Source: Actinomycetota bacterium
GTDB taxonomy: Bacteria; Actinomycetota; Acidimicrobiia; Acidimicrobiales; Ilumatobacteraceae
Assembly: GCA_030645495.1 (NCBI GenBank)
Contig: JAUSLV010000011.1
Span: forward strand, 256,659-320,658
Length of the DNA stretch: 64,000 nt
Direction of reading: 5' to 3'
Part shown: piece by piece, positions 22,131 to 61,929 of the stretch
Position numbering within the stretch: the stretch's first letter is position 1
Layout: each line of letters opens with the position of its first letter
Notes under the pieces: generated by a model
What the model was told of the DNA's origin: nothing
The model's input: only the letters and a program-made list of their open reading frames with translations
Databases searched by the model: none
Position numbers and translations under genes: made by a program

Positions 22131-23933
22131 GTGAGGACCACGAAGCGCGGCAAGTTCGCCGCCATCGCGGTCGGCCTGTCACTGATCGCCGCTACTGCTT
22201 GCAGCGACGACAAGGACAGTGGCTCGACCGACACCACCACCGCCGGTAGCACTGAGACCACCGCGGCACCCGCCAGCGGCGGCAGCGTTACCTACGCCGC
22301 CGAGCAGGAGTACACGTCGTACAACAACGCCACGGCCGACCAGGTGCTCTTCGCGAACACCTTGGTGCTGAACATGGTTCAGCCCGGCCCGTTCATCTCG
22401 ATGCCCGACCTCACTTTCCAGCTGTGGGAAGACATGATGGTTTCGGCCGAGGTCACCAGTGAAGACCCGCAGGTCGTCGAGTACGTCATCCAGCCCGCCG
22501 CGGTCTGGGAAGACGGCGAAGCGATCGACTGCGACGACTTCTACCTCGCGTGGATTTCCCAGAGCGGCAAGCTCAACCACGCCAACCCCGACTACACCGG
22601 CCCCGGCCAGGTTGATGCCGACGGCAACGAGGTCCCCGAGACCCTGCCCGACTTCAACGCCGCCGGCACCACCGGTATGGAAGACATCGAGTCGGTGGAG
22701 TGCAGTGACGACGGCAAGACCGTCACCACCACCTACGCCAACCTGTATGCCGACTGGAAGGGCCTCTTCGGCGCCCTCATCCCGGCCCACGTGGTCGAGG
22801 CCGAGAGCGGCGTTGCCGACATCACCGCCATTGATCCCGAGACGTCGTCCGACGACTCGGTCGCCGCTGGCGATGTGTGGAGCAACGGCTTCATCGGTTT
22901 CGACTCCGCGCTGGCACTGTCCGGCGCGTGGTACGACATCGATTCGTGGACTGAGGGTCAGAACCTGATCCTCAAGCGCAACGAGGCCTTCTACGGCACG
23001 CCGGGCAACCTTGACGAGATCGTGTTCCTCCTGGTGCCGGACGCCACTCAGCAGCCCGCCGCGCTGGAGAACGGTGACGTTCAGGTCATCTCGCCGCAGC
23101 CGAACGCCGACCTCGTCGCTCAGCTCGATGGCATCGCCGGTATCACCACCTCGATCGAGCAGGGTCTCACGTTCGAGCACTACGACTTCAACCAGGCGAA
23201 CAAGCACCTCGCGCTGCTCGAAGTCCGCCAGGCCCTGGCACTGTGCATCGACCGCGAAGAGATCGTCAGCACCCTGGTGCAGCCGATCAACCCCGACGCC
23301 ACCGTGCTGAACAGCCACATCTACGTGCCCTCCGCTGCCGACTACCAGGACAACAGCGATGGCCTCGTGCGTGATGTCGACGCAGCCAAGGCCCTCCTCG
23401 AGGGCGCCGGCTACACCTTGGGCAGCGACGGCGTGTACGTCGATGCCGATGGCGACCGTCTCAGCATCCGTCTGGGTCGCAAAGAGCCGAACCCGCGTCG
23501 TCAGAGCACCAACGAGCTGGCGGCCGAGCAGTGCAAGGAGGCCGGCATCGAGTTGACCGATGATGGCACGGAAGACTTCAACGCCGTCCGTCTGTCCGCC
23601 AGCGACTACGACATCGCACTGTTCGCGTGGGTCGCCACGCCGTTCCTGTCCTCCAACACCAGCCTCTACGTGCCCGGTGGCGGTCAGAACTGGAACGCCT
23701 ACGACAACCCCGACATCCAGGCGCTGTTCGACCAGGCCAATGCCGAGTTCGATGATGCTGTTCGCGCTGATCTCATGGATCAGATCGACCAGCTCCTGTG
23801 GGACGACATGGCAACGCTGCCGCTGTTCCAGTTCCAGGAAATGGTCGCCTACAGCGACACGGTGACCGGCGTGGTCTTCAACGGCCCGCTCGGTGTCACT
23901 TGGAACGCCAACGAATGGGCCCTCTCGGCCTGA
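22131..23933 (+). CDS. peptide ABC transporter substrate-binding lipoprotein (SBP family 5, OppA/DppA-like)
   Basis: A lipobox LIAATAC is present. The protein is 600 aa and is followed by two permeases and two ATPases. Confidence 0.85.
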   Translation: MRTTKRGKFAAIAVGLSLIAATACSDDKDSGSTDTTTAGSTETTAAPASGGSVTYAAEQEYTSYNNATADQVLFANTLVLNMVQPGPFISMPDLTFQLWEDMMVSAEVTSEDPQVVEYVIQPAAVWEDGEAIDCDDFYLAWISQSGKLNHANPDYTGPGQVDADGNEVPETLPDFNAAGTTGMEDIESVECSDDGKTVTTTYANLYADWKGLFGALIPAHVVEAESGVADITAIDPETSSDDSVAAGDVWSNGFIGFDSALALSGAWYDIDSWTEGQNLILKRNEAFYGTPGNLDEIVFLLVPDATQQPAALENGDVQVISPQPNADLVAQLDGIAGITTSIEQGLTFEHYDFNQANKHLALLEVRQALALCIDREEIVSTLVQPINPDATVLNSHIYVPSAADYQDNSDGLVRDVDAAKALLEGAGYTLGSDGVYVDADGDRLSIRLGRKEPNPRRQSTNELAAEQCKEAGIELTDDGTEDFNAVRLSASDYDIALFAWVATPFLSSNTSLYVPGGGQNWNAYDNPDIQALFDQANAEFDDAVRADLMDQIDQLLWDDMATLPLFQFQEMVAYSDTVTGVVFNGPLGVTWNANEWALSA

Positions 23934-24011
23934 TCGATCCGATCCAACGATGAGTGGGCCGGGCCTTTCGGGGCCCGGCCCACTCGCTATGGGAGAACCC
24001 GGTCGCAACCC

Positions 24012-25208
24012 ATGTTCCGTTTCATACTGCGTCGAATCCTCGTCGCAATTCCGCTGCTGTTCGCTTCGAGCATCGTCACGTTCCTGCTCGTCACGAACAT
24101 CGGCACCCCGAAGAAGATCGAGGATGCCATCGCGCGTCCCAACCATTCGCAGACCCAGATCAGCCAACTCCGTATCCAGTTCGGCATCGATAAGCAGCCA
24201 GTAGCGCGCTACGTCGACTGGTTCACGGGCTTCGTCAAGGGCGACTGGGGTCAGAACGCCACCAAGGCTGAGATCCGCCCCCTGATGTGGCAGCGCATCC
24301 AGGTGACGCTGCGGCTGCTGATCGCCGCGTCCATCATGTCCGTCATCCTCGGTGTTCTGGTGGGCATCATCGGCGCTATCCGCCAATACACCGCCTTCGA
24401 CTATTTCATGACGTTCTTCGCGTTCTTGTTCTTCTCGATCCCGGCAGCAGTGCTCGCCGGCTTCCTGAAGGAATGGGGTGCGATCAAGATGAATCCGTGG
24501 CTACGCAATCCCAGCATGTCCACCACGATCATGATCACCATCGCCGCCTTCGGGCTGGTGGCGGGCTACCTGATCATGCGCAACCGACTGAAGTACGAGC
24601 GCGTGCGACCGCGCAGCAAGTACATCACCGGTGCCGTTGCCGGCCTCGGCATCGGTCTGGGCGTGATCGTGGTGTTCAAGCTCGGCTGGGACGGCAATGT
24701 CTACCGAGTGCGCAACCCCAAGCCGCTGATTCCCACGGTGGGGCAAACCACGCCCGGTTTCGAGGGCGACTTCCTCGCCCGCATGCAGGACTACTTCTGG
24801 CACATGCTCCTGCCGTCGACGGCGCTGATCCTGATCGGCTTCGCCGGCTACAGCCGCTACATGCGTGCCTCCATGCTCGACGTGATGAGCAGCGACTACG
24901 TGCGCACCGCACGGGCCAAGGGCATCTCCGAGAAGCGGGTCACCGTGCTGCACGGTGTGCGCAACGCGCTCATCCCGCTGATCACGATCGTGGCGCTCGA
25001 CTTCGGTGCGCTGCTCAGCGGGGCGATCATCACCGAGACCATCTTCGGCTGGTCGGGCATGGGCCGCTTCTTCTCCGAGTCGCTCGCCGAGAAAGACCCG
25101 CGGTCGCTGCTCGCGTTTGTGATGGTGACCGCTGTGTCGGTGGTCCTGTTCAACTTGATCGCCGACATCATCTACGCCCAACTCGACCCGAGGATCCGAA
25201 TTGACTGA
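24012..25208 (+). CDS. peptide ABC transporter permease (DppB/OppB-like)
   Basis: It has six TM segments and a BPD-transp_1 EAA-like loop. Confidence 0.85.
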   Translation: MFRFILRRILVAIPLLFASSIVTFLLVTNIGTPKKIEDAIARPNHSQTQISQLRIQFGIDKQPVARYVDWFTGFVKGDWGQNATKAEIRPLMWQRIQVTLRLLIAASIMSVILGVLVGIIGAIRQYTAFDYFMTFFAFLFFSIPAAVLAGFLKEWGAIKMNPWLRNPSMSTTIMITIAAFGLVAGYLIMRNRLKYERVRPRSKYITGAVAGLGIGLGVIVVFKLGWDGNVYRVRNPKPLIPTVGQTTPGFEGDFLARMQDYFWHMLLPSTALILIGFAGYSRYMRASMLDVMSSDYVRTARAKGISEKRVTVLHGVRNALIPLITIVALDFGALLSGAIITETIFGWSGMGRFFSESLAEKDPRSLLAFVMVTAVSVVLFNLIADIIYAQLDPRIRID

Positions 25209-26112
25209 GCCCACCACCTCCGTCCCCGTCGTCGACGAGCGCGAGTTCTCGGTAGCCGCTCGGTCGCAGTGGAAGACCATCGTGCGCCGCTTCCTGCGGC
25301 ATCGCCCGGCGATGATCTCGCTGTTCGTGCTCACCTCGATCACGCTGTTCGTGTTCATCTTCCCGTACTTCTGGGAATGGCCGTTCACCAAGCGCGACAA
25401 GCTCAGCTTGTCGAAGTCCCCCTCCTGGGCACACCCGTTCGGCACCGACGGCCTTGGCAAGGACGTGATGGGTCGCGTGATGCGTGGTACCCAACGGTCG
25501 CTCGAGATCGCGATCATTGCCTCGTTCCTCATCACCACGATCGGTGTGTTCCTCGGCGCGATCGCCGGCTACTTCCGTGGCTGGATCGATGCGATCATCA
25601 TGCGCTTCACCGACCTGGTGCTCACGATCCCGCTGCTGATCATCGTGGCCGTCGTGTCCGTGGGGTACCCCGGGTCTCCGTGGTACACGATTCCCGTGAT
25701 CCTCGGCATCTTCGCCTGGACTGGCCTGGCGCGAATCGTGCGGGCCGAGTTCATGTCGTTGCGTGAGAAGGAGTTCGTGGAGGCCGCTCGTGCGGTCGGC
25801 GCTCGCGACCGCCGGATCATCTTCCGCCACATCCTGCCCAACATCGCCGGCCCGATCATCGTGGCAGCCACGCTGTCGATCGCCGGCACGATGATCACCG
25901 AGACGGCCCTCTCGTTCCTCGGACTTGGCGTGTTGCCGCCCGACGTGTCGCTGGGCCAGTTGATCCAGGAGAGCCTCACGGCGTTCAAGACGCGTCCGTG
26001 GCTGTTCTGGTTCCCGTCGGCGGCGATCGTGCTCATCTGTTTGTGCGTGAACTTCATCGGCGATGGGCTGCGCGACGCGTTCGACCCGAAGCAGAACCGG
26101 ATCAAGGCCTGA
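25201..26112 (+). CDS. peptide ABC transporter permease (DppC/OppC-like)
   Basis: A permease fold is predicted. It overlaps the upstream gene by 8 nt. Confidence 0.85.
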   Translation: MTEPTTSVPVVDEREFSVAARSQWKTIVRRFLRHRPAMISLFVLTSITLFVFIFPYFWEWPFTKRDKLSLSKSPSWAHPFGTDGLGKDVMGRVMRGTQRSLEIAIIASFLITTIGVFLGAIAGYFRGWIDAIIMRFTDLVLTIPLLIIVAVVSVGYPGSPWYTIPVILGIFAWTGLARIVRAEFMSLREKEFVEAARAVGARDRRIIFRHILPNIAGPIIVAATLSIAGTMITETALSFLGLGVLPPDVSLGQLIQESLTAFKTRPWLFWFPSAAIVLICLCVNFIGDGLRDAFDPKQNRIKA

Positions 26113-26115
26113 CCC

Positions 26116-27126
26116 ATGGCACTTCTCGAAGTCAACAATCTCAACGTGCGCTTCCCCACGGAAGACGGTGTGGTGCACGCTGTTCGCGACGTCTCGTTCT
26201 CCGTCGATCGCGGCGAAGTGCTGGGCATCGTGGGCGAGTCGGGTTCCGGCAAGTCGGTCACCAACTTGGCGATCATGGGCCTGTTGGCGCGCAGCACGCG
26301 CATCGACGGCTCGATCATGTACGACGGTTCCGAACTGGTGGGCCTACCGCGTAGCCAACAGACCAAGTTCCGGGGCAACGAGATCGGGATGATCTTCCAA
26401 GACCCGATGACCTCGCTGAACCCGGTGTACACCGTTGGCTGGCAGATCGCCGAGGCGTACCGGGCGCACAACAAGGTGAGCAAGCAGCAGGGCATCGCCC
26501 GTGCAGTCGAGCTGCTCGACCTGGTGGGCATTCCGCAGGCCGTGAAGCGGGTGCACAGCTACCCGCACGAGTTCTCCGGTGGTATGCGCCAGCGCGTGAT
26601 GATCGCGATGTCGATGGCCAACAACCCGCAGGTGCTGATCGCCGACGAACCCACCACGGCGCTCGACGTGACGGTGCAGGCGCAGATCCTCGAGACGCTG
26701 ATGGAGATCAAGGAGCGCACGAACATCGCGATCGTGTTGATCACTCACGACCTCGGCGTGGTCGCCGGTATGGCCGACCGAGTGATGGTGATGTACGCCG
26801 GGGCCGCCGTGGAGATCGCCCCCGTCGACGAGATCTACTACCGGCCGAAGATGCCGTACACGATCGGCCTGTTAGGGGCGATCCCCAGCGAGGCCAGCGA
26901 CGGAAAGAAGCTGCGCCAGATCAGAGGCACCACTCCTTCGCTGATCAACATGAAGCCCGGCTGCCCGTTCTCGCCGAGGTGTCCGTTGGTGCAGGATCGC
27001 TGCCTCACCCAGACCCCCACGCTGGAGGCGGTCGACAATCCTGCTCATCTGGCCGCATGCCACCGCCGCGCCGAGATCGAGTCGATCGACGTGCGCGCCC
27101 TGTTCGCCCCGGAGGTCGTGGCATGA
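26116..27126 (+). CDS. peptide ABC transporter ATP-binding protein (OppD/DppD-like)
   Basis: Walker A GESGSGKS, the LSGGMRQR signature and a C-terminal oligopeptide-transporter tail are present. Confidence 0.9.
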
Positions 27127-28130
27127 GCGAGCCGATTCTCGAAGTCACCAACCTGGTCAAGCGGTTCCCGATCAAGGGCGGCCTGTTGCGCCACACGGTT
27201 GCGGTCGTCGACGCAGTGTCGGGCGTGTCGTTCACCGTCAACAAGGGCGAGACGCTGGGCCTCGTGGGCGAGTCGGGTTGTGGCAAGTCCACGACGGCAC
27301 GCGCGATCCTGCGGCTGCACGAGCCCGATTCGGGCAGCGTGAAGTTCGAGGGCCGCGAGGTCACGACGCTCGGCAAGCAGCAGATGCGCCAGTTGCGTCG
27401 CGAGATGCAGATCGTGTTCCAAGATCCCTACGCCTCGTTGAACCCGCGTTGGCAGATCAACAACATCGTCGGCGAGCCGCTGGCGGTGCATGGCGTCGGC
27501 TCGAAGCAGCGCGTCGAGCGCGTGAGAGAGCTGCTGGCGCTGGTGGGCCTGAACCCCGAGCACGGCAACCGCTACCCGCACGAGTTCTCCGGTGGTCAGC
27601 GTCAGCGCATCGGCGTTGCCCGTGCACTTGCGCTCGATCCGAAGCTGATCGTGCTCGACGAGCCCGTGTCGGCGCTCGACGTGAGCGTGCAGGCCGGCGT
27701 GATCAACCTGCTGGAAGATCTCCAGAACCGCCTCGGCCTGTCGTACGTGTTCGTGGCCCACGACCTGTCGGTGGTGCGCCACATCAGCGACCGTGTGGCC
27801 GTGATGTACCTCGGCAAGATCGTCGAGATCGGTACCCGCGACGAGGTGTACCACCACGCGTCGCACCCGTACTCGCAGGCGCTGTTGTCGTCGGTGCCGG
27901 TGGCCGATCCGATCACCGAGCGGGCCCGCAACCGGGTGGTGCTCACCGGCGATGTTCCCAGCCCGATCAACCCGCCCTCAGGCTGCCGGTTCCGTACCCG
28001 CTGCCCGATCGCTCAGCAGATCTGCGCGGATGAGGAGCCTGAGCTGAAGGATCGTGGCCAGGGGCATCAGGTTGCCTGCCATTTCGCCAGCGAGGTGGCA
28101 GTCTCGCTCACCTCGACGGCCGCACTCTGA
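27123..28130 (+). CDS. peptide ABC transporter ATP-binding protein (OppF/DppF-like)
   Basis: Walker [10 protein letters not shown] and the signature FSGGQRQR are present. An ATGA start/stop overlap links it to the previous gene. Confidence 0.9.
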
Positions 28131-28431: not shown

Positions 28432-28515
28432 GTCGAAGTGGCGGAATAGGCAGACGCGCTAGCTTGAGGGGCTAGTGAACTTAGGTTCGTGGGGGTTCAA
28501 GTCCCCCCTTCGACA
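28432..28515 (+). tRNA. tRNA-Leu (anticodon GAG), type II with long variable arm
   Basis: The acceptor stem pairs GTCGAAG with CTTCGAC. The D-arm is TGGCGGAATAGGCAGACGCG. The anticodon loop ttGAGgg sits on a CTAGC/GCTAG stem. A long variable arm and the T-arm GGGGGTTCAAGTCCCCC are present, with discriminator A and no encoded CCA. Confidence 0.9.
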
Positions 28516-28601
28516 CACTGTTTCTGCTGCGGCCGTCCTTCGGGGCGGCTGTTGCGGTTTTCGAGTGCGGGAGTTGACGGCGCCGGCCTGCGGTGGGCCG
28601 G

Positions 28602-28621
28602 GCCATTCCACGTCATTCAGA
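28602..28621. repeat. solo 20-nt copy (GCCATTCCACGTCATTCAGA) of one terminal repeat of the MITE-like element at 60387..60780
   Basis: It is an exact 20/20 match to 60395..60414. It lies about 90 bp downstream of tRNA-Leu. Confidence 0.8.
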
Positions 28622-28676
28622 CTTGGTCGGTCATAGAGCGAAAGGTCGCCGTTCCGAGACTCGCATGAACGTTGAC

Positions 28677-29351
28677 CTATGCGTCAAACCGACGCCAGTT
28701 CCCTTCCGAAACGACGTCGACAGCGCCGTCAACGATGCGGATGGCGGTCTCGTCGTCGGTCGCGTAGGCAGGGCAGTCGAGTTCGGCAGCCCATGTCTCC
28801 GCGTGAGCCAGCGTGTTCTCGGGGAGAGCCTCGTGGTCGAGGTGAGGGAAGATCGAGAAGTCGACCAGGCCGAGCGCCCGGTCGTCGCCGGCGGGCGGCC
28901 TCCACCCGACGAACTCCTTGCCAATGCGCGGTGTCATCACCATGCTGCCCGCGCTCATGCCGATCCACACCGTGTCGTCGAGCTGGGGCAGTAGGTCGGT
29001 CAGCCCGCACTCCCGCATCCAGTGGCACAGGTAGAGCGCGTCGCCGCCCGACACGAGCAGCACGTCGGCCTTGCGTACGAGGGGAACCCACTGTTCCTCG
29101 TCGATGCTGGGCAGCGCGGTCAACTCGATCAACCCCACCGACTTCCAGCCCAGTTCGACCATCGGCTGTTCGGATCGCCCGGCGACGAACTCCCACACGT
29201 TCTCGCCCGGCCCTGCATGGGGATGGCCGTACATCGCAGTAGGGATGCACAGTGCGGCGCACTCCTCGATGGGGCGGCCGAGCATGTCGAGCAGCGCGTC
29301 GTGGATCGTCGCGTTCCTGACGCCGGCCGAGGTGAGCAGCATGCGACGCAT
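28677..29351 (-). CDS. peptidase E / S51-family (type-1 glutamine-amidotransferase-like) dipeptidase
   Basis: VLLVSGGDALYL and IGMSAGSMV (the nucleophile Ser region) resemble dipeptidase E. Confidence 0.7.
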   Translation of the reverse strand: MRRMLLTSAGVRNATIHDALLDMLGRPIEECAALCIPTAMYGHPHAGPGENVWEFVAGRSEQPMVELGWKSVGLIELTALPSIDEEQWVPLVRKADVLLVSGGDALYLCHWMRECGLTDLLPQLDDTVWIGMSAGSMVMTPRIGKEFVGWRPPAGDDRALGLVDFSIFPHLDHEALPENTLAHAETWAAELDCPAYATDDETAIRIVDGAVDVVSEGNWRRFDA

Positions 29352-58844: not shown

Positions 58845-59627
58845 TCAGGAAGCCGTGCTGTGCTCGGCAGCGGCCGCCTGCTGGTGCTGGTCGCTGCCAC
58901 CGCCGAACGTGCGCCACACGCCCACGCCGACGATGTACATCGGGCACACCACGATGAGGTACTGCGCAACCTCGTTGTGGTTCGGCAGGTCGGCGGTCAT
59001 CGCCAGCATGATCGCCAACCAGGCGATCGTGACGGTGACGGTGACCGGCCGGAACCGGCGCACCTGCATCGGGTGCAGGAACTTCCAGTTGGTGAGCTGC
59101 GTGAGCGCCAGCGCGACGCAGATGACGCCGGTGACCCACGGCTTGGAGTCCAACAGGAAGAGCGTGGGCACGATCATGTTCCACTCGCACGGGAAGCCGT
59201 TGAAGAAGTGGTCGTCGGTCATCTGGTCGGTGCGCGACATCCACAGCGCCGACATGAACAGCACGAATGCGCCGATCACCAGCGACCAGCCCTCGGGCAA
59301 CATGCCGAAGCGGTGCATGAACAGCACGGGGATGACGATGCACGTGACGAAGTCGATGATCAGGTCGAGGGTGTAGCCGTCGATGCGCGGCACGTGCGTG
59401 CTGACCGCCCAGGCGCGGGCGGCCGGCCCGTCGATGCCGTCGAGGATCATCGCCACGGCCAGCCAGAGGATGGCCTCCTTGGCATCGCCGTCGGCGACGG
59501 CGATCAGACCGAACATGCCGCACACGGCGCCGAGCGCGGTGAAACAGTGCACCAGGTAGCCCTTGAGCACCGGGTGGCTGAGTGTGGTGACCGGCTGGGA
59601 GGCCGAATCAGGGGTTGGGGTGGACAT
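58845..59627 (-). CDS. CDP-alcohol phosphatidyltransferase-family protein
   Basis: DGIDGPAARA is the DG(x)2AR...G...D motif. The protein is polytopic. Confidence 0.7.
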   Translation of the reverse strand: MSTPTPDSASQPVTTLSHPVLKGYLVHCFTALGAVCGMFGLIAVADGDAKEAILWLAVAMILDGIDGPAARAWAVSTHVPRIDGYTLDLIIDFVTCIVIPVLFMHRFGMLPEGWSLVIGAFVLFMSALWMSRTDQMTDDHFFNGFPCEWNMIVPTLFLLDSKPWVTGVICVALALTQLTNWKFLHPMQVRRFRPVTVTVTIAWLAIMLAMTADLPNHNEVAQYLIVVCPMYIVGVGVWRTFGGGSDQHQQAAAAEHSTAS

Positions 59628-59729
59628 ACCGTCGTGGCTCGTCTCGCTGGGGCCGCCCCGCCAGGCAGCCATTCGGCTCACATGCTAACGCCGACAGCGG
59701 ATAGCCGGGTGCAGGTAGGGTGGCCCACC

Positions 59730-60368
59730 ATGCGGCATCGAGCGCGGGCGGTGGCCTACCGAATCGGCGGCGAGTGGATCCGGCGCAGCTGGGGCTGGCT
59801 CGGCCGGGTGGCGGCGATCGGGGCCAACGACCGTGCCGGCCGGCGTTTCGGCCGCTTCGGGCAGGGCAGCATCATCTGCTTCCCGCACAACACGATCTTC
59901 AACGAGCGCTACATCCACATCGGGTCGGCCACGATGATCGGGCCCCACGCCACGCTGTCTGCAGGGATGATGCCCGGCCAGCAGTGTCTCTCCGACCCGG
60001 TCGTGCGCATCGGGGATCGATGCCTCATCGGCAAGGGCAGCGGCATCGTCGGCCACTTCAGTATCGACATCGGCGACGACGTCTGGACCGGCCACCACGT
60101 GTACATCACCGACCAGAACCATGGCTACGAGGACATCACCGTCCCGATCTCGCAGCAGACCCAACCCGAGCAGGCCGTCAGCATCGGCAACGGCTCGTGG
60201 CTGGGGTACGGCACGGTGGTGCTCCCCGGGGCGAAAATCGGCGAGCACGTCACGATCGGGGCCAACTCGGTGGTCACCGGCGAGATCCCCTCGTTCAGCG
60301 TCGCCGTCGGCGCGCCCGCGAAGGTGATCCGCCGGTACGTGGAGGGTGAAGGCTGGGTGCGGGCGTAA
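59730..60368 (+). CDS. hexapeptide-repeat (left-handed beta-helix) O-acetyltransferase
   Basis: Repeated [LIV]GxxxxI hexapeptides are present (IGDRCLIGKGSGIVG, IGNGSWLGYGTVV, IGEHVTIGANSVV). Confidence 0.75.
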   Translation: MRHRARAVAYRIGGEWIRRSWGWLGRVAAIGANDRAGRRFGRFGQGSIICFPHNTIFNERYIHIGSATMIGPHATLSAGMMPGQQCLSDPVVRIGDRCLIGKGSGIVGHFSIDIGDDVWTGHHVYITDQNHGYEDITVPISQQTQPEQAVSIGNGSWLGYGTVVLPGAKIGEHVTIGANSVVTGEIPSFSVAVGAPAKVIRRYVEGEGWVRA

Positions 60369-60386
60369 CGCGGCCGGCGCCGGCGC

Positions 60387-60780
60387 GTTGTGGCGCCATT
60401 CCACGTCATTCAGATTCCGCCGAGCCGGCCCAGGGCTTGTGGGGCTGGATCGCTCCGAAACCCGGGACAGGCCGAGAACGGCATCGACGCCGAGTGCCCT
60501 GCCGGTGCCGAGGCGCCAGCTGTGGTGCAGCGGCTCGACGAGGCCGCCTTCTCCATCCAGGACGGCGTCGACGAGGGGGCCCCATCATTTGACGACACAC
60601 AGCTGCGTTTCGGAAGGCGCGAGCTGCGGCCGCATGGGCGAGCCTGGAGATCGACGACTCGTTCAGTGGGTGTTCAGCGGCGGTCTCGAAGCAGTCCACT
60701 CGTTCGAGCACGGCGAGCTGGTGATCCTCGGCGCCTTGCGGCCATGACGTATCGAAATCTGAATGAGGTGAAATGGGGCC
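60387..60780. mobile_element. MITE-like non-autonomous element of about 394 bp with imperfect terminal inverted repeats of about 28 bp
   Basis: The left end GGCGCCATTCCACGTCATTCAGATTCCG (60391-60418) is the reverse complement of CGAAATCTGAATGAGGTGAAATGGGGCC (60753-60780) at 24 of 28 positions. The ORFs inside it are low-complexity and not credible. Confidence 0.6.
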
Positions 60781-60826
60781 ACCGGGTGCGGGCCGAGCGC
60801 TTCGCTGCCGACCCGCCGGACCGGGT

Positions 60827-61396
60827 CTAGTTGGGCTGCAAGTAGCGGCTGAGGTCGCCAGGAGGCGAGCACAGCGGCACTTCGTTGCCCTTCACCCCGG
60901 CGGTGAAGTCGGTGATCACGTTCGTGACCGGCCCGCCCCCCACCACCGTTTCCGAGTAGTCGATGTTGCGGCCCTCACGCAGGGCTGCGGTGTACTCGCG
61001 CCGATCAGCGATCACGATCCGGTAGTTCTCCTCGAACGTCGCCAGCCGCGTGCGGTCGTCGTCGTTGTCCACCGGGATGGCCACCAGGTCGGTGACCATC
61101 TGGTCGAGGATGTCGGTTGCCTGGTCGGCGAGATCGGCACGCTGCGCCATCTGCTCGGGGGTCGGCTCAGTGATGAAGCCCTGCTCGGTGTCGGCGAGGG
61201 CCACGACCGCGGCATCCGCGGCGGCACAGATCTTCAGTGCCTGTGGGCGCCAACTGGAGTCCTCGATGCGGTAGACGCCCTTGTCGTCGGACAGGAAGAT
61301 GGCGAAGATCCACATTGCGGCGACGGCGAGGCAACCAACCGCCAGCACGATCTTGACCCACAGCTTGCCCTTGGGCGCCTCGTCGGCGGCAGTCAC
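60827..61396 (-). CDS. membrane-anchored hypothetical protein (N-terminal TM, periplasmic domain)
   Basis: The GTG start overlaps the DoxX stop (GTGA). The supplied ORF is longer at the 5' end, but that part is Arg/His-rich antisense junk. Confidence 0.5.
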   Translation of the reverse strand: MTAADEAPKGKLWVKIVLAVGCLAVAAMWIFAIFLSDDKGVYRIEDSSWRPQALKICAAADAAVVALADTEQGFITEPTPEQMAQRADLADQATDILDQMVTDLVAIPVDNDDDRTRLATFEENYRIVIADRREYTAALREGRNIDYSETVVGGGPVTNVITDFTAGVKGNEVPLCSPPGDLSRYLQPN

Positions 61397-61929
61397 TCGG
61401 CCGCCTTCGTCGGGGGACGGTAGCTCGTTGCCAGCTGAGCGAGGCCGCCACCGATGCCGAGGCCGGCGGCGATGACCAGACCCCACCACTCCTTGAACTC
61501 GATGTCGAGCGCGTGGTCGAGCGACCACCGGCTGGTGGGCAGCGTGGCCACGACCAGGGCGACCACCAGGATCGACATGCAGTACTCCCAGCCTTGGTTG
61601 GGCTTGAAGACGAAGAAGCCCACCTTCCAGTGCTCGGTCCAGATGGCGACGAACATGATGCCGACGATGCCGGCCGCGGCCAGCGGGGTGAGGAGGCCGG
61701 CGGCGAACATCAGGCCGGCGCCGACCTCGGTGGTGGCCGCGATCCGGGCCTGCCACTTCGGCCACTTCATCCCCATCGATCCGAACCAGCGAGCGGTGCC
61801 GGCGAGGCGCCCGCCGCCGAAGAACTTGTTGTAGCCGTGTGCGGCGAGGAACACGCCGAACACGACTCGAAGCGCAAGGACTGCGATGTCGTACTGCTGC
61901 ATGGGCGAAAGGCTACGGCGGTGACGCCT
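61393..61929 (-). CDS. DoxX-family membrane protein
   Basis: Four TM segments and DoxX-like VFGVFLAAHGYNKF are present. The supplied ORF extends 5' in antisense to the ABC gene. Confidence 0.75.
   Translation of the reverse strand, partial: RRHRRSLSPMQQYDIAVLALRVVFGVFLAAHGYNKFFGGGRLAGTARWFGSMGMKWPKWQARIAATTEVGAGLMFAAGLLTPLAAAGIVGIMFVAIWTEHWKVGFFVFKPNQGWEYCMSILVVALVVATLPTSRWSLDHALDIEFKEWWGLVIAAGLGIGGGLAQLATSYRPPTKAAE

What the first reader, a model, noticed from the sequence alone, without database searches (positions are those of the whole stretch)
28432..28680. Solo copy of the MITE terminal repeat about 90 bp downstream of tRNA-Leu(GAG)
The 20-mer GCCATTCCACGTCATTCAGA at 28602-28621 is identical to the MITE left end at 60395-60414. 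It sits just 3' of a tRNA gene, a classic integration hot spot, and is preceded by a similar GC-rich context (CGGCGCCGGC). It could be a remnant solo terminal inverted repeat, or the 28.6-60.4 kb interval could be delimited by direct copies. The latter is considered less likely because the interval contains panBC and other core genes.
Basis: seen in the sequence. Interest (0 to 1): 0.5.

Follow-up and report, generated by a model that had tools for sequence, protein, structure and literature searches.

The report
Leftover mobile-element end beside tRNA-Leu
The 20-base repeat next to the tRNA-Leu gene is real: it is an old, cut-off, solo copy of the roughly 50-base unit that forms both arms of a small non-coding insertion 32 kb away, and it sits in a slot where related bacteria carry an integrated element, so it is a piece of genomic debris, not the edge of an island.

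Summary
**Observation:** confirmed. GCCATTCCACGTCATTCAGA occurs exactly at 28602-28621 and 60395-60414, with an inverted 17/20 copy at 60758-60777. None is expected by chance. tRNA-Leu(GAG) is at 28432-28516.

**The repeat is longer than 20 bases.** A profile defines units at 28575-28627 (S), 60373-60419 (L arm) and 60751-60804 (R arm).

**The "MITE" is a real insertion.** The L and R arms bound a non-coding stretch that fills the 458-bp gap between two convergent genes. That stretch is absent from two relatives.

**S marks a synteny break.**
- It lies just past the conserved tRNA terminator, where gene order with relatives breaks down.
- Two relatives (L086, L087) carry an orthologous S, so it is inherited, not recent.
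- Other relatives carry an integrated element there, with a large serine recombinase and a Rep-like gene.
- That recombinase gene contains a homologue of the unit, in the same orientation and within 260 nt of the tRNA.

**Rejected:**
- A 31.8-kb island. The interval has no integrase, no GC shift and housekeeping genes.
- A generic public REP motif. Two large public DNA collections gave only chance hits.

**Best reading:** S is a vestigial, truncated element end at a tRNA-linked integration hot spot. How the arms were mobilised is unresolved. Interest is low to moderate.

The parts
28432..28516 (+). tRNA-Leu (anticodon GAG), directly downstream of secG
   Evidence: ARAGORN; Rfam tRNA 53.5 bits. 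The same tRNA follows secG in all relatives examined.
28524..28557 (+). Terminator-like hairpin after the tRNA, followed by GGTTTTCG. The block conserved across the relatives aligned in A1 ends at about 28563.
   Evidence: Fold -30.1 kcal/mol, z = -3.6. Conserved in L075, L076, L077 and L082 (alignment A1) and present in L086/L087. It does not meet the strict T-run rule of the terminator scan.
28575..28627 (+). Solo unit S. It comprises the outer GC-rich part (CGGCGCCGGC...), the 20-mer core at 28602-28621, and CTTGGT. It is truncated on the inner side, right after TCAGA.
   Evidence: nhmmer profile hit, E = 8.6e-12, though S was part of the training set. 44-nt homology to the L arm, E = 3.8e-6. 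A 52-nt orthologous alignment to L086/L087 was reached by 0 of 2000 shuffles, and similarity ends after CTTGGT. S has AGA|CTTGGT where L, R and the recombinase genes have AGA|TT(C/T)(C)CG.
28628..28676 (.). Unique 49-nt spacer between S and the stop codon of the peptidase S51 gene. It resembles nothing in any relative.
   Evidence: Alignments A1 and A2; blastn against relatives' loci.
28677..29351 (-). Peptidase S51 (dipeptidase E-like) gene. It sits in different, non-syntenic neighbourhoods in relatives, so it is probably cargo of the variable slot.
   Evidence: Homologues carry PF03575. Three different contexts, none next to a tRNA. Similarity to relatives stops at the stop codon.
60355..60364 (+). 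Left copy of the 10-bp direct repeat GGGTGCGGGC. It lies in the last codons (W V R A) of the hexapeptide acetyltransferase gene, which spans 59730-60368 by my arithmetic from the 212-aa call in L073.
   Evidence: Read from the sequence. The gene call comes from L073/L074.
60369..60826 (.). The 458-bp stretch between the stop codons of two convergent genes, made almost entirely of lineage-specific inserted DNA. It is non-coding. The exact limits of the insertion are uncertain by a few nt.
   Evidence: In L074 the two genes overlap by 4 nt (a shared CTAG). In L083 they are 47 nt apart. No frame has coding-like GC3 (0.76 at most, against about 0.87 in genes). No Rfam family matched. The 146-aa spanning ORF has no protein homologue among 1.84 billion representatives.
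60373..60419 (+). L arm: a full unit with its core at 60395-60414.
   Evidence: nhmmer. Inverted repeat I3. 27/31 match to the recombinase gene of L079 (blastn E = 1.2e-4). A 38-nt Smith-Waterman alignment was reached by 0 of 1000 shuffles.
60420..60750 (.). Interior of the insertion, 331 nt, with no detectable homology or coding signal. It is not palindromic.
   Evidence: No match in plasmids or phages.
60751..60804 (-). R arm: an inverted unit with its core at 60758-60777 (17/20 to the 20-mer). It contains the right copy of GGGTGCGGGC at 60784-60793.
   Evidence: nhmmer.
60827..61396 (-). Conserved hypothetical membrane-anchored protein (189 aa), convergent with the acetyltransferase gene. 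It served as the anchor to find this genome and the empty sites.
   Evidence: 100% identical to P0121 (NCBI MAG, locus tag Q7V57_06005, 501-kb contig). Coordinates are my arithmetic from the 189-aa product.

Best explanation
**What it is.** The 20-mer is the core of a repeat unit about 45-55 bp long. The copy beside tRNA-Leu (S, 28575-28627) is a solo copy of that unit, cut off on its inner side. The same unit, in inverted orientation, forms both arms of a non-coding, lineage-specific, MITE-like insertion of about 430-460 bp at 60.4 kb.

**Where it sits.** S lies a few bases past the tRNA's conserved terminator, at a point where gene order with relatives breaks down. In sister lineages this slot holds an integrated element resembling an actinomycete integrative element. 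That element has a large serine recombinase gene next to a Rep-like gene. The recombinase gene carries the homologous sequence at the same place and in the same orientation.

**Inferred history.** A mobile element related to that recombinase element once ended here. Deletion and replacement removed everything inward of ...TCAGA. The stump was then inherited vertically. S has no demonstrable present function. It does not delimit the 28.6-60.4 kb interval.

**Shown:** the homologies, the synteny breaks, the empty sites and the orthologous S.

**Inferred:** that the unit was an element end recognised in trans by a recombinase or transposase, and that the 60.4-kb element is a non-autonomous derivative of the same family.
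For: 1. The three copies are far beyond chance.
2. Homology between S and the L arm spans 44 nt (E = 3.8e-6). The L arm also shares the outer flank GCGG(G/C)CGGCGCCGGC with the orthologous S of L086, in a 50-nt alignment reached by 1 of 2000 shuffles.
3. S is truncated. Both S orthologues read AGA|CTTGGT, while L, R and the recombinase genes share AGA|TT(C/T)(C)CG.
4. The 60.4-kb element is an insertion. The flanking genes overlap by 4 nt in L074 and are 47 nt apart in L083. An independent assembly is identical.
5. The slot is hypervariable. Conservation with L075, L076, L077 and L082 ends at about 28563, and with L086/L087 at 28627. The neighbouring peptidase gene is non-syntenic.
6. L077 and L079-L081 carry a large serine recombinase gene abutting the tRNA, with Resolvase, Recombinase and Zn_ribbon_recom domains. 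In L079 a weak Rep_trans gene follows it.
7. A profile built only from the three window copies was run against 174 kb of relatives' DNA. Its seven best hits all lie within 260 nt downstream of tRNA-Leu, on the tRNA strand. They are L086/L087 (E = 2e-6), L079-L081 (E = 1.3e-3), L077 (E = 9e-3) and L076 (E = 1.8, not significant by itself).
8. Serine-recombinase actinomycete integrative elements that target a tRNA-Leu gene are documented in Mycobacterium (PMC3218068).
Against: - No clean target-site duplication. The 10-bp direct repeat GGGTGCGGGC (60355-60364 / 60784-60793) has its right copy inside the R arm as the profile defines it. The left arm also starts about 9 nt from the left copy.
- Only one complete two-armed element is known. 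No autonomous partner and no transposase or recombinase gene is present in the window.
- No copy was found in 185,579 species genomes, the JGI metagenome contigs, viral contigs, plasmids or phages.
- In the recombinase genes the homologous piece lies 230-258 nt inside the element. It falls in the region predicted to encode the coiled coil, not at the element's terminus. Its role as an "end" is therefore not explained.
- Evidence that the DNA between the terminator and S holds further recombinase remnants is weak (p = 0.03 in one of four tests).
- The 20/20 identity between S and L contrasts with their indel-ridden outer parts. It also contrasts with the 2 differences between the orthologous S copies. 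This hints at gene conversion or constraint that the model does not require.
Confidence: 0.55

Rival explanations
1. S is purely an in-situ pseudogene fragment of a large serine recombinase gene that once sat beside tRNA-Leu, and the unit never served as a mobile-element end. On this view the 60.4-kb insertion is not a transposon. It is a one-off patch, for example break repair with fold-back or template switching, that copied the same recombinase-derived sequence twice in inverted orientation.
For: - The homologous piece sits at the same locus, strand and orientation in the recombinase genes of L077 and L079-L081.
- The unit translates as LNDVEW / LNEVKW, against NLKDVER / NLKEVEQ in the recombinases.
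- There is no clean target duplication, no second full element and no transposase.
- One chain alignment suggests further 3' remnants of the recombinase gene between the terminator and S (p = 0.03).
Against: - S and the L arm share an outer flank, GCGG(G/C)CGGCGCCGGC, that is not recombinase-like. This implies a common processed ancestor rather than independent decay.
- tblastn with the recombinase finds no other remnant in the window.
- Three of four chain tests are not significant.
- Two inverted copies of the same 50-nt piece bounding an insertion are not expected from simple decay.
Confidence: 0.2
2. The core is a functional cis-acting site, a binding or recombination site for a recombinase or regulator encoded elsewhere in this genome, and is kept by selection. 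L and R would then bound an invertible or excisable 331-bp segment, and S would be a third site.
For: - The core is 20/20 identical between S and L, although their outer parts differ by indels.
- The core is the best-conserved part in all copies.
- All copies lie just 3' of a gene on the same strand.
- The motif holds CATTC twice, 10 nt apart (CATTCCACGTCATTC). This is read directly from the sequence.
Against: - No recombinase gene is present in the window.
- No promoter-like or terminator-like site lies in or near the elements.
- There is no dyad symmetry and no conserved secondary structure.
- The independent assembly shows only one orientation.
- The R arm tolerates 3 changes in 20.
- In the recombinase genes, conservation of this stretch is matched by other coding stretches.
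Confidence: 0.12
3. The unit is a high-copy REP-like intergenic repeat specific to this genome, so its nearness to the tRNA is a coincidence.
For: - Three copies in 64 kb would extrapolate to more than 100 per genome.
- All three are intergenic and lie 3' of genes.
- REP families are typically species-specific (own knowledge).
- The rest of the genome could not be searched.
Against: - In 174 kb from relatives the unit occurs only at the tRNA-Leu locus, once per locus.
- It is not palindromic and has no consensus hairpin.
- There is no hit in any actinobacterial genome among 185,579 species representatives.
- The orthologous S in L086/L087 shows that the tRNA linkage is inherited and not a coincidence.
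Confidence: 0.06
4. The two direct copies, S and L, are attachment-site repeats that bound a 31.8-kb integrated island next to tRNA-Leu.
For: The two exact 20-mers are in direct orientation, and one is close to a tRNA gene.
Against: - The interval has no integrase, transposase or other mobility gene. It encodes panB, panC, a CLC channel, an SPFH protein, dehydrogenases, a carboxyltransferase and peptidases.
- GC content and skew do not differ from the flanks.
- Window coordinates of about 51-63 kb are syntenic with L074, where the L copy is simply absent.
- The repeat does not include any part of the tRNA.
- The L copy has its own inverted partner 343 nt away.
Confidence: 0.02

Closest known systems
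MITEs and solo terminal-repeat remnants of insertion sequences (own knowledge of the class)
   Same: - A small (about 430-460 bp) non-coding insertion with inverted arms of about 30-50 bp.
- It is present or absent between close relatives.
- A solo arm copy lies elsewhere in the same genome.
   Different: - No unambiguous target-site duplication.
- The arms do not reach the exact insertion limits.
- Only one full copy is known.
- No autonomous element with matching ends was found in any collection searched.
- The arms are homologous to an internal coding stretch of a serine recombinase gene, not to a known IS terminus.
Actinomycete integrative and conjugative elements that use serine recombinases and integrate at a tRNA-Leu gene (Ghinet et al. 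2011, PMC3218068)
   Same: - Relatives L077 and L079-L081 carry a large serine recombinase gene abutting tRNA-Leu(GAG). In L079 a Rep_trans-like gene follows it.
- S occupies the same slot, and its sequence is homologous to part of that recombinase gene.
   Different: - The window itself has no recombinase, Rep or transfer gene.
- The L079 recombinase ORF lacks the first ~52 positions of the Resolvase profile (the catalytic-serine end), so it is probably defective.
- No att repeats of the element could be defined.
- The described mycobacterial elements were not compared by sequence here.
Recombinase-less remnants of integrative elements, such as the cis-mobilisable elements of Streptococcus and pseudo-SCC elements, which keep only their ends (own knowledge)
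   Same: The idea is the same: short element ends persist at an integration hot spot after the recombination and transfer genes are lost. Elements moved by large serine recombinases also have imperfect terminal inverted repeats.
   Different: - Those remnants are bounded by direct att repeats at the known crossover site.
- Here the arms are inverted units of about 50 nt.
- The homologous piece in the recombinase element lies 230-258 nt inside it.
- No crossover dinucleotide could be identified.
REP/BIME intergenic repeats
   Same: Short intergenic units lying 3' of genes, sometimes as inverted pairs.
   Different: - The unit is not palindromic.
- In relatives it occurs only at the tRNA-Leu locus.
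- No high copy number has been demonstrated.

Membership tests
MITE | Small (under about 800 bp) and non-coding | tested here: met
   The 458-bp gap between the two stop codons holds the insertion. No frame has coding-like GC3. The spanning ORF has no protein homologue.
MITE | Terminal inverted repeats | tested here: met
   Arms of 41 nt at 78%, with a 26/30 core. Profile units are 47 and 54 nt. They lie about 5-22 nt inside the insertion limits, so they are not strictly terminal.
MITE | Target-site duplication flanking the element | tested here: inconclusive
   An exact 10-bp direct repeat, GGGTGCGGGC, lies at 60355-60364 and 60784-60793. The right copy falls inside the R arm as the profile defines it, and about 30 extra nt follow it before homology to relatives resumes.
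MITE | Insertion polymorphism (empty site in relatives) | tested here: met
   Absent in L074 (genes overlap by 4 nt) and in L083 (47-nt spacer).
MITE | Multiple dispersed copies in the genome | not testable with these tools
   Only 64 kb of the 501-kb contig is available. Within it there is one full element plus one solo arm. No copy exists in the public collections searched.
MITE | A related autonomous element with the same ends and a transposase | tested here: not met
   None in the window, in relatives' loci, or in plasmids, phages or viral contigs. The only longer relative of the arm sequence is an internal piece of a serine recombinase gene.
tRNA-linked genomic island bounded by att direct repeats (28.6-60.4 kb) | Integrase or recombinase gene next to the tRNA-proximal repeat | tested here: not met
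   Pfam scan of 20 ORFs in the interval found metabolic and transport genes only. tblastn with the relatives' recombinase gave only noise.
tRNA-linked genomic island bounded by att direct repeats (28.6-60.4 kb) | The direct repeat contains the 3' part of the tRNA gene | tested here: not met
   The repeat starts 86 nt after the tRNA, beyond its terminator.
tRNA-linked genomic island bounded by att direct repeats (28.6-60.4 kb) | Composition differs from the flanks and the block is absent from relatives | tested here: not met
   GC is 0.65-0.71 throughout. Window coordinates of about 51-63 kb are syntenic in L074.
REP/BIME repeats | Imperfect palindromic unit forming a hairpin | tested here: not met
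   RNAalifold finds no consensus pairs on either strand for six copies.
REP/BIME repeats | Tens to hundreds of copies per genome | not testable with these tools
In 174 kb of relatives' DNA the unit occurs only at the tRNA-Leu locus.
Attachment sites of a large serine recombinase (attL/attR) | A site of about 40-50 bp with imperfect dyad symmetry around a central dinucleotide that is repeated at both junctions | tested here: not met
   No dyad symmetry is visible in the unit, by inspection. The dinucleotides outside the arms differ (TT at 60388-60389 against CG at 60783-60784, read).
Attachment sites of a large serine recombinase (attL/attR) | A cognate recombinase gene in the element or genome | not testable with these tools
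   None in the window. The rest of the genome was not seen.
Invertible DNA switch (inverton) | Inverted repeats flanking a segment found in both orientations, usually with a promoter and a nearby invertase | tested here: inconclusive
   Inverted repeats are present. No promoter-like site was found and no invertase is in the window. The independent assembly has the same orientation. Read-level data are not available.
Integrated serine-recombinase element of the actinomycete type (in relatives, not in the window) | Recombinase, replication and transfer genes integrated at a tRNA gene | tested here: inconclusive
   L079 has a recombinase ORF with Resolvase, Recombinase and Zn_ribbon_recom domains, but it lacks Resolvase profile positions 1-52. 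It is followed by a weak Rep_trans match (E = 2.7e-4, below Pfam's cut-off). No transfer gene was identified and no att repeats were found.

The most novel reading that the evidence does not exclude
The unit of about 50 nt is a genuine recombination or recognition site that also lies inside the part of a large serine recombinase gene predicted to encode its coiled coil. On this reading the recombinase, acting in trans, moves or inverts miniature elements bounded by inverted copies of the unit. The tRNA-Leu-linked solo copy would be the family's ancestral chromosomal site. This would be a MITE- or inverton-like family dependent on a serine recombinase, with arms derived from the recombinase's own coding sequence.
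Probability: 0.1. Interest if true: 0.65.

Novelty: new member of a known kind. Interest (0 to 1): 0.3.

Why it matters
In practical terms the finding is ordinary. It marks a decayed mobile-element junction at a tRNA-linked hot spot in an uncultured Ilumatobacteraceae-like actinobacterium. It shows that the 32 kb between the repeats is ordinary chromosome, not an island.

It has modest wider value for two reasons.
- It documents that the slot downstream of secG and tRNA-Leu(GAG) is a recombination hot spot across this clade. Some lineages hold elements with serine recombinases there, and integration by such recombinases next to tRNA genes is described as rare (PMC3218068).
- It shows inverted arms of a miniature insertion that are homologous to an internal coding stretch of that recombinase gene. 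If this reflects a real mechanism, it would point to an undescribed way of generating or mobilising miniature elements.

Tried and rejected
**Searches that found nothing useful**
- **Species genomes:** the motif CCATTNCACNTCATTCAGA against 185,579 species genomes gave 40 singletons in unrelated phyla with unrelated flanks. This is about chance level.
- **Metagenome contigs:** CCATTYCACSTCATTCAGA gave 23 singletons with no flank similarity.
- **Viral contigs:** TTCCACSTCWTTCAGATTC gave 0 hits.
- **Plasmids and phages:** blastn of the insertion found no match.
- **Protein representatives:** HMMER search of the 146-aa ORF spanning the insertion against 1.84 billion proteins gave 0 hits.
- **Rfam:** gathering and E-value thresholds on both sites gave only the tRNA and noise.

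**Hypotheses tested and dropped**
- **Conserved RNA or DNA structure of the unit:** none found. The whole insertion folds only modestly better than shuffles (z = -2.2 and -2.7), driven by the arms.
- **Promoter or terminator function:** the scans found nothing.
- **Island hypothesis:** rejected.
- **A second, diverged partner arm for S, making a larger element that carries the peptidase gene:** none with up to 6 mismatches and none by profile search.
- **Other recombinase remnants in the window:** tblastn gave only noise.
- **Homology of the flanks of S, beyond the unit, to the element's interior or arms:** not significant.
- **Further 3' remnants of the recombinase gene between the terminator and S:** weak, p = 0.03 in one of four tests.
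- **att repeats of the L079 element:** none found.

**Dead ends in finding the genome**
- Exact-protein look-ups with the two window proteins tried first failed, perhaps because of start-codon differences.
- The peptidase gene proved useless as a synteny anchor because it is non-syntenic.

**Ideas I set aside**
- Resemblances to Tn3-family ends, to parS and to a response-regulator direct-repeat site were recalled from memory and not pursued. None was supported by any feature tested.
Full report
**1.

GCCATTCCACGTCATTCAGA is exact at 28602-28621 and 60395-60414, both on the + strand. An inverted copy with three mismatches lies at 60758-60777. None of 100 dinucleotide-preserving shuffles gave any match. 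The 9-mer core occurs only at these three places. Nothing else in the window comes within 6 mismatches of the 19-mer.

tRNA-Leu(GAG) is at 28432-28516, so the 20-mer starts 86 nt after it. The two copies at 60.4 kb are the cores of an inverted repeat at 60379-60419 / 60753-60793 (41 nt, 78%). An independent Logan assembly of run SRR13727526 (L073) is 100% identical to window 59436-61624, so this is not an assembly artefact.

**2. The organism**

The window has 63-72% GC. It carries rpsA, uvrA/B, gap-pgk-tpiA, a dpp-type ABC operon and secG (names assigned by eye from the ORF translations, and from the gene calls in relatives).

Its proteins match uncultured Acidimicrobiia / Ilumatobacteraceae at 80-91% identity. 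Two window proteins are 100% identical to proteins of an NCBI MAG, "Actinomycetota bacterium", with locus tag Q7V57_ and a 501-kb contig.

**3. The repeat unit is longer than 20 bases**

- Homology between S and the L arm runs over 44 nt with two indels (28578-28621 against 60375-60414, blastn E = 3.8e-6).
- A profile of six copies delimits the units as 28575-28627 (S), 60373-60419 (L) and 60751-60804 (R, inverted).
- Beyond the units, the flanks of S, L and R are not significantly alike.
- The 331-nt interior between L and R is not palindromic. It has no coding-like frame: GC3 is 0.76 at most, against about 0.87 in the window's genes.
- The region matches no Rfam family, and the ORF spanning it has no protein homologue. 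It has no match in plasmids or phages.

**4. The 60.4-kb element is a real, lineage-specific insertion**

It lies between two convergent genes: a hexapeptide acetyltransferase (stop codon at 60366-60368) and a conserved 189-aa protein (stop at 60827-60829).

- In the closest relative with a long contig (L074, 88% amino-acid identity) the same two genes overlap by 4 nt, sharing a CTAG.
- In a more distant relative (L083, 75%) they are 47 nt apart.

So nearly all of the window's 458 bp between the stops is extra DNA.

A 10-bp exact direct repeat, GGGTGCGGGC, lies at 60355-60364 (the last codons of the acetyltransferase) and at 60784-60793. It could be a target-site duplication. However, its right copy falls inside the R arm as the profile defines it, and about 30 more nt follow before homology to relatives resumes. 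I therefore leave it unresolved. "MITE-like" is a fair description, but membership is not proven.

**5. The 28.6-60.4 kb interval is not an island**

- Twenty ORFs scanned against Pfam are metabolic or transport genes. They include a CLC channel, an SPFH protein, a luciferase-like oxidoreductase, an alcohol dehydrogenase, a carboxyltransferase, an enolase-superfamily protein, peptidases M1 and S58, panB and panC. None is an integrase or transposase.
- GC content and skew are the same as in the flanks.
- Window coordinates of about 51-63 kb are colinear with L074.

**6. The slot downstream of tRNA-Leu is hypervariable**

Using SecG as an anchor, I fetched the locus from several relatives. All have secG followed by tRNA-Leu(GAG), and most also keep a strong hairpin after it (window 28524-28557, -30 kcal/mol, z = -3.6).

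After about 28563 the relatives aligned in A1 differ from the window and from each other:
- L075 has small ORFs and a HIRAN-domain gene.
- L076 has an FkbM-type methyltransferase.
- L077 and L079-L081 have a large serine recombinase gene on the opposite strand, whose ORF runs into the tRNA. In L079 a 413-aa gene with a weak Rep_trans match follows it.

This arrangement resembles actinomycete integrative elements. Ghinet et al. report that 19 of 144 such elements use serine recombinases. Eight mycobacterial ones integrate into a tRNA-Leu gene, and the authors call such integration rare (PMC3218068).

L076 and L077 encode the identical SecG protein yet differ downstream, so the slot is polymorphic even among close strains.

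In the window the slot holds only S, 49 unique nt, and a peptidase S51 gene. The closest homologues of that gene (84-91%) sit in three other, unrelated neighbourhoods, none near a tRNA. Similarity to them stops at the stop codon.

**7. S is inherited**

Two contigs from different metagenomes (L086 and L087, SecG 95% identical) carry, at the same distance after the terminator:

...CGGCGCCGGCTGGTCGGTGACTCGGGTCATTCCACCTCATTCAGACTTGGT...

This is a 52-nt alignment to window 28578-28627 that none of 2000 shuffles reached. Similarity ends right after CTTGGT (window 28627), so variable DNA starts immediately to the right of S.

L076 has a weaker, collinear resemblance (4 of 2000 shuffles reached it; profile E = 1.8). 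S is therefore an old feature of this locus, not a recent insertion.

**8. The unit is homologous to a piece of the serine recombinase gene**

- L079 10577-10607, GTGGTGTCGCCGTTCCACGTCTTTCAGATTC, matches the L arm GTTGTGGCGCCATTCCACGTCATTCAGATTC at 27 of 31 positions (blastn E = 1.2e-4 against 174 kb). A 38-nt Smith-Waterman alignment was reached by 0 of 1000 shuffles.
- L077 804-824 matches at 19 of 21.
- A profile built from the three window copies alone, run on 174 kb of relatives' DNA, has as its seven best hits L086/L087 (E = 2e-6), L079-L081 (E = 1.3e-3), L077 (E = 9e-3) and L076 (E = 1.8). All seven lie on the tRNA strand within 260 nt downstream of tRNA-Leu.

In the recombinases this stretch encodes ...ENLKDVERRHH... 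or ...RNLKEVEQRS..., about 75 codons before the natural C-terminus. From general knowledge of large serine recombinases I take this to be the coiled-coil region. That assignment was not tested here.

The stretch is well conserved between L077 and L079, but other coding stretches are conserved to a similar degree. tblastn finds no other recombinase remnant in the window.

**9. How the copies relate**

- Both S orthologues read AGA|CTTGGT. L, R and the recombinase genes read AGA|TTCCG, TTTCG or TTC(T)CCG. S has therefore lost everything inward of TCAGA, and the arms cannot derive from S as it now stands.
- The L arm shares with S, best seen in L086, an outer flank GCGG(G/C)CGGCGCCGGC that is not recombinase-like. 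This argues that S and L descend from one processed unit and not from two independent decays of a recombinase gene.
- All copies have the same polarity. The GCC... end faces the nearest conserved flank and the ...TCAGA end faces inward. This is read from the coordinates.

**10. Interpretation**

The simplest reading that covers all of this is as follows. S is the vestigial, truncated end of a mobile element related to the serine-recombinase elements that still occupy this tRNA-Leu slot in sister lineages. The 60.4-kb insertion is a non-autonomous, two-ended derivative of the same family.

Several things remain unexplained:
- Why the homologous sequence lies 230-258 nt inside the recombinase element and not at its tip.
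- What enzyme moved the two-armed element.
- Whether GGGTGCGGGC is a target duplication.
- Why the 20-mer is identical between S and L when their outer parts differ by indels.

The rivals are a pure in-situ pseudogene fragment combined with a one-off fold-back insertion, a selected protein-binding or inversion site, a genome-specific REP-like family, and an island boundary. The last is effectively excluded.

**11. Limits**

Only 64 kb of the genome was visible. Copy number in this genome and read-level polymorphism could not be examined.

Many of the short GC-rich similarities I noticed are not statistically secure. Examples are GCGGGC, GGCGCC, GGAGTT.ACGG and GCCGA.CG.TTCG. I have not built on them.

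Noticed in passing
L079 10270-12902 (also L080, L081); L077 461-848: [quoted passage not shown] In L079 the ORF lacks the first ~52 positions of the Resolvase profile (the catalytic-serine end). It is followed by a 413-aa gene with a weak Rep_trans match. This is probably a decaying integrative element of the actinomycete type.
   Followed up: partly
L076 versus L077: These two contigs encode the identical SecG protein (P0243). Downstream of tRNA-Leu, L076 has an FkbM methyltransferase and L077 has the serine recombinase. The slot is therefore polymorphic within a very close group of strains.
   Followed up: partly
window 28677-29351: The closest homologues (84-91% identity) of the peptidase S51 / dipeptidase E-like gene lie in three unrelated neighbourhoods in relatives. 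One is beside a FitA-like antitoxin gene. The gene appears to travel with variable DNA.
   Followed up: partly
window 60355-60368 versus L074 10591-10594 and L083 3571-3617: The two convergent genes share overlapping stop codons (CTAG) in L074. They are 47 nt apart in L083 and 458 nt apart in the window. In the window the acetyltransferase ends GCG TAA where L074 has GCC TAG, which is a synonymous change plus a stop-to-stop change.
   Followed up: yes
window 60784-60830: Downstream of the right copy of GGGTGCGGGC the frame continues as ...VRAERFAADPPDRV* and ends on the shared CTAG. This could be a former longer C-terminus of the acetyltransferase. Alternatively it could be part of the recombinase-like unit (AERF against ADQF / ADRF). 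The two readings could not be separated.
   Followed up: partly
window ~22131-28130; L075 3975-9975; L079 3972-9975: A five-gene dpp/opp-type ABC transporter operon sits between tpiA and secG in the window and in its relatives. From general knowledge, this interrupts the gap-pgk-tpiA-secG cluster usual in actinobacteria.
   Followed up: no
window 28582-28600; 60377-60397; L079 10569-10585: A short GC-rich hairpin precedes the core in several copies, with different stem sequences: CCGGCC/GGCCGG in S, GGCGCC/GGCGCC in L, and GGCGA/TCGCC in L079. RNAalifold found no consensus structure, so I treat this as GC-rich coincidence.
   Followed up: yes
L086 927-936 versus window 60355-60364: The 10-mer GGGTGCGGGC that flanks the 60.4-kb insertion also occurs in the outer flank of the orthologous S unit of L086 (GGGGTGCGGGCGGCGCCGGC). 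The window's S has AGTGCGGGAG at that place. This could hint at a preferred target or att-like sequence, or it could be chance in GC-rich DNA.
   Followed up: no
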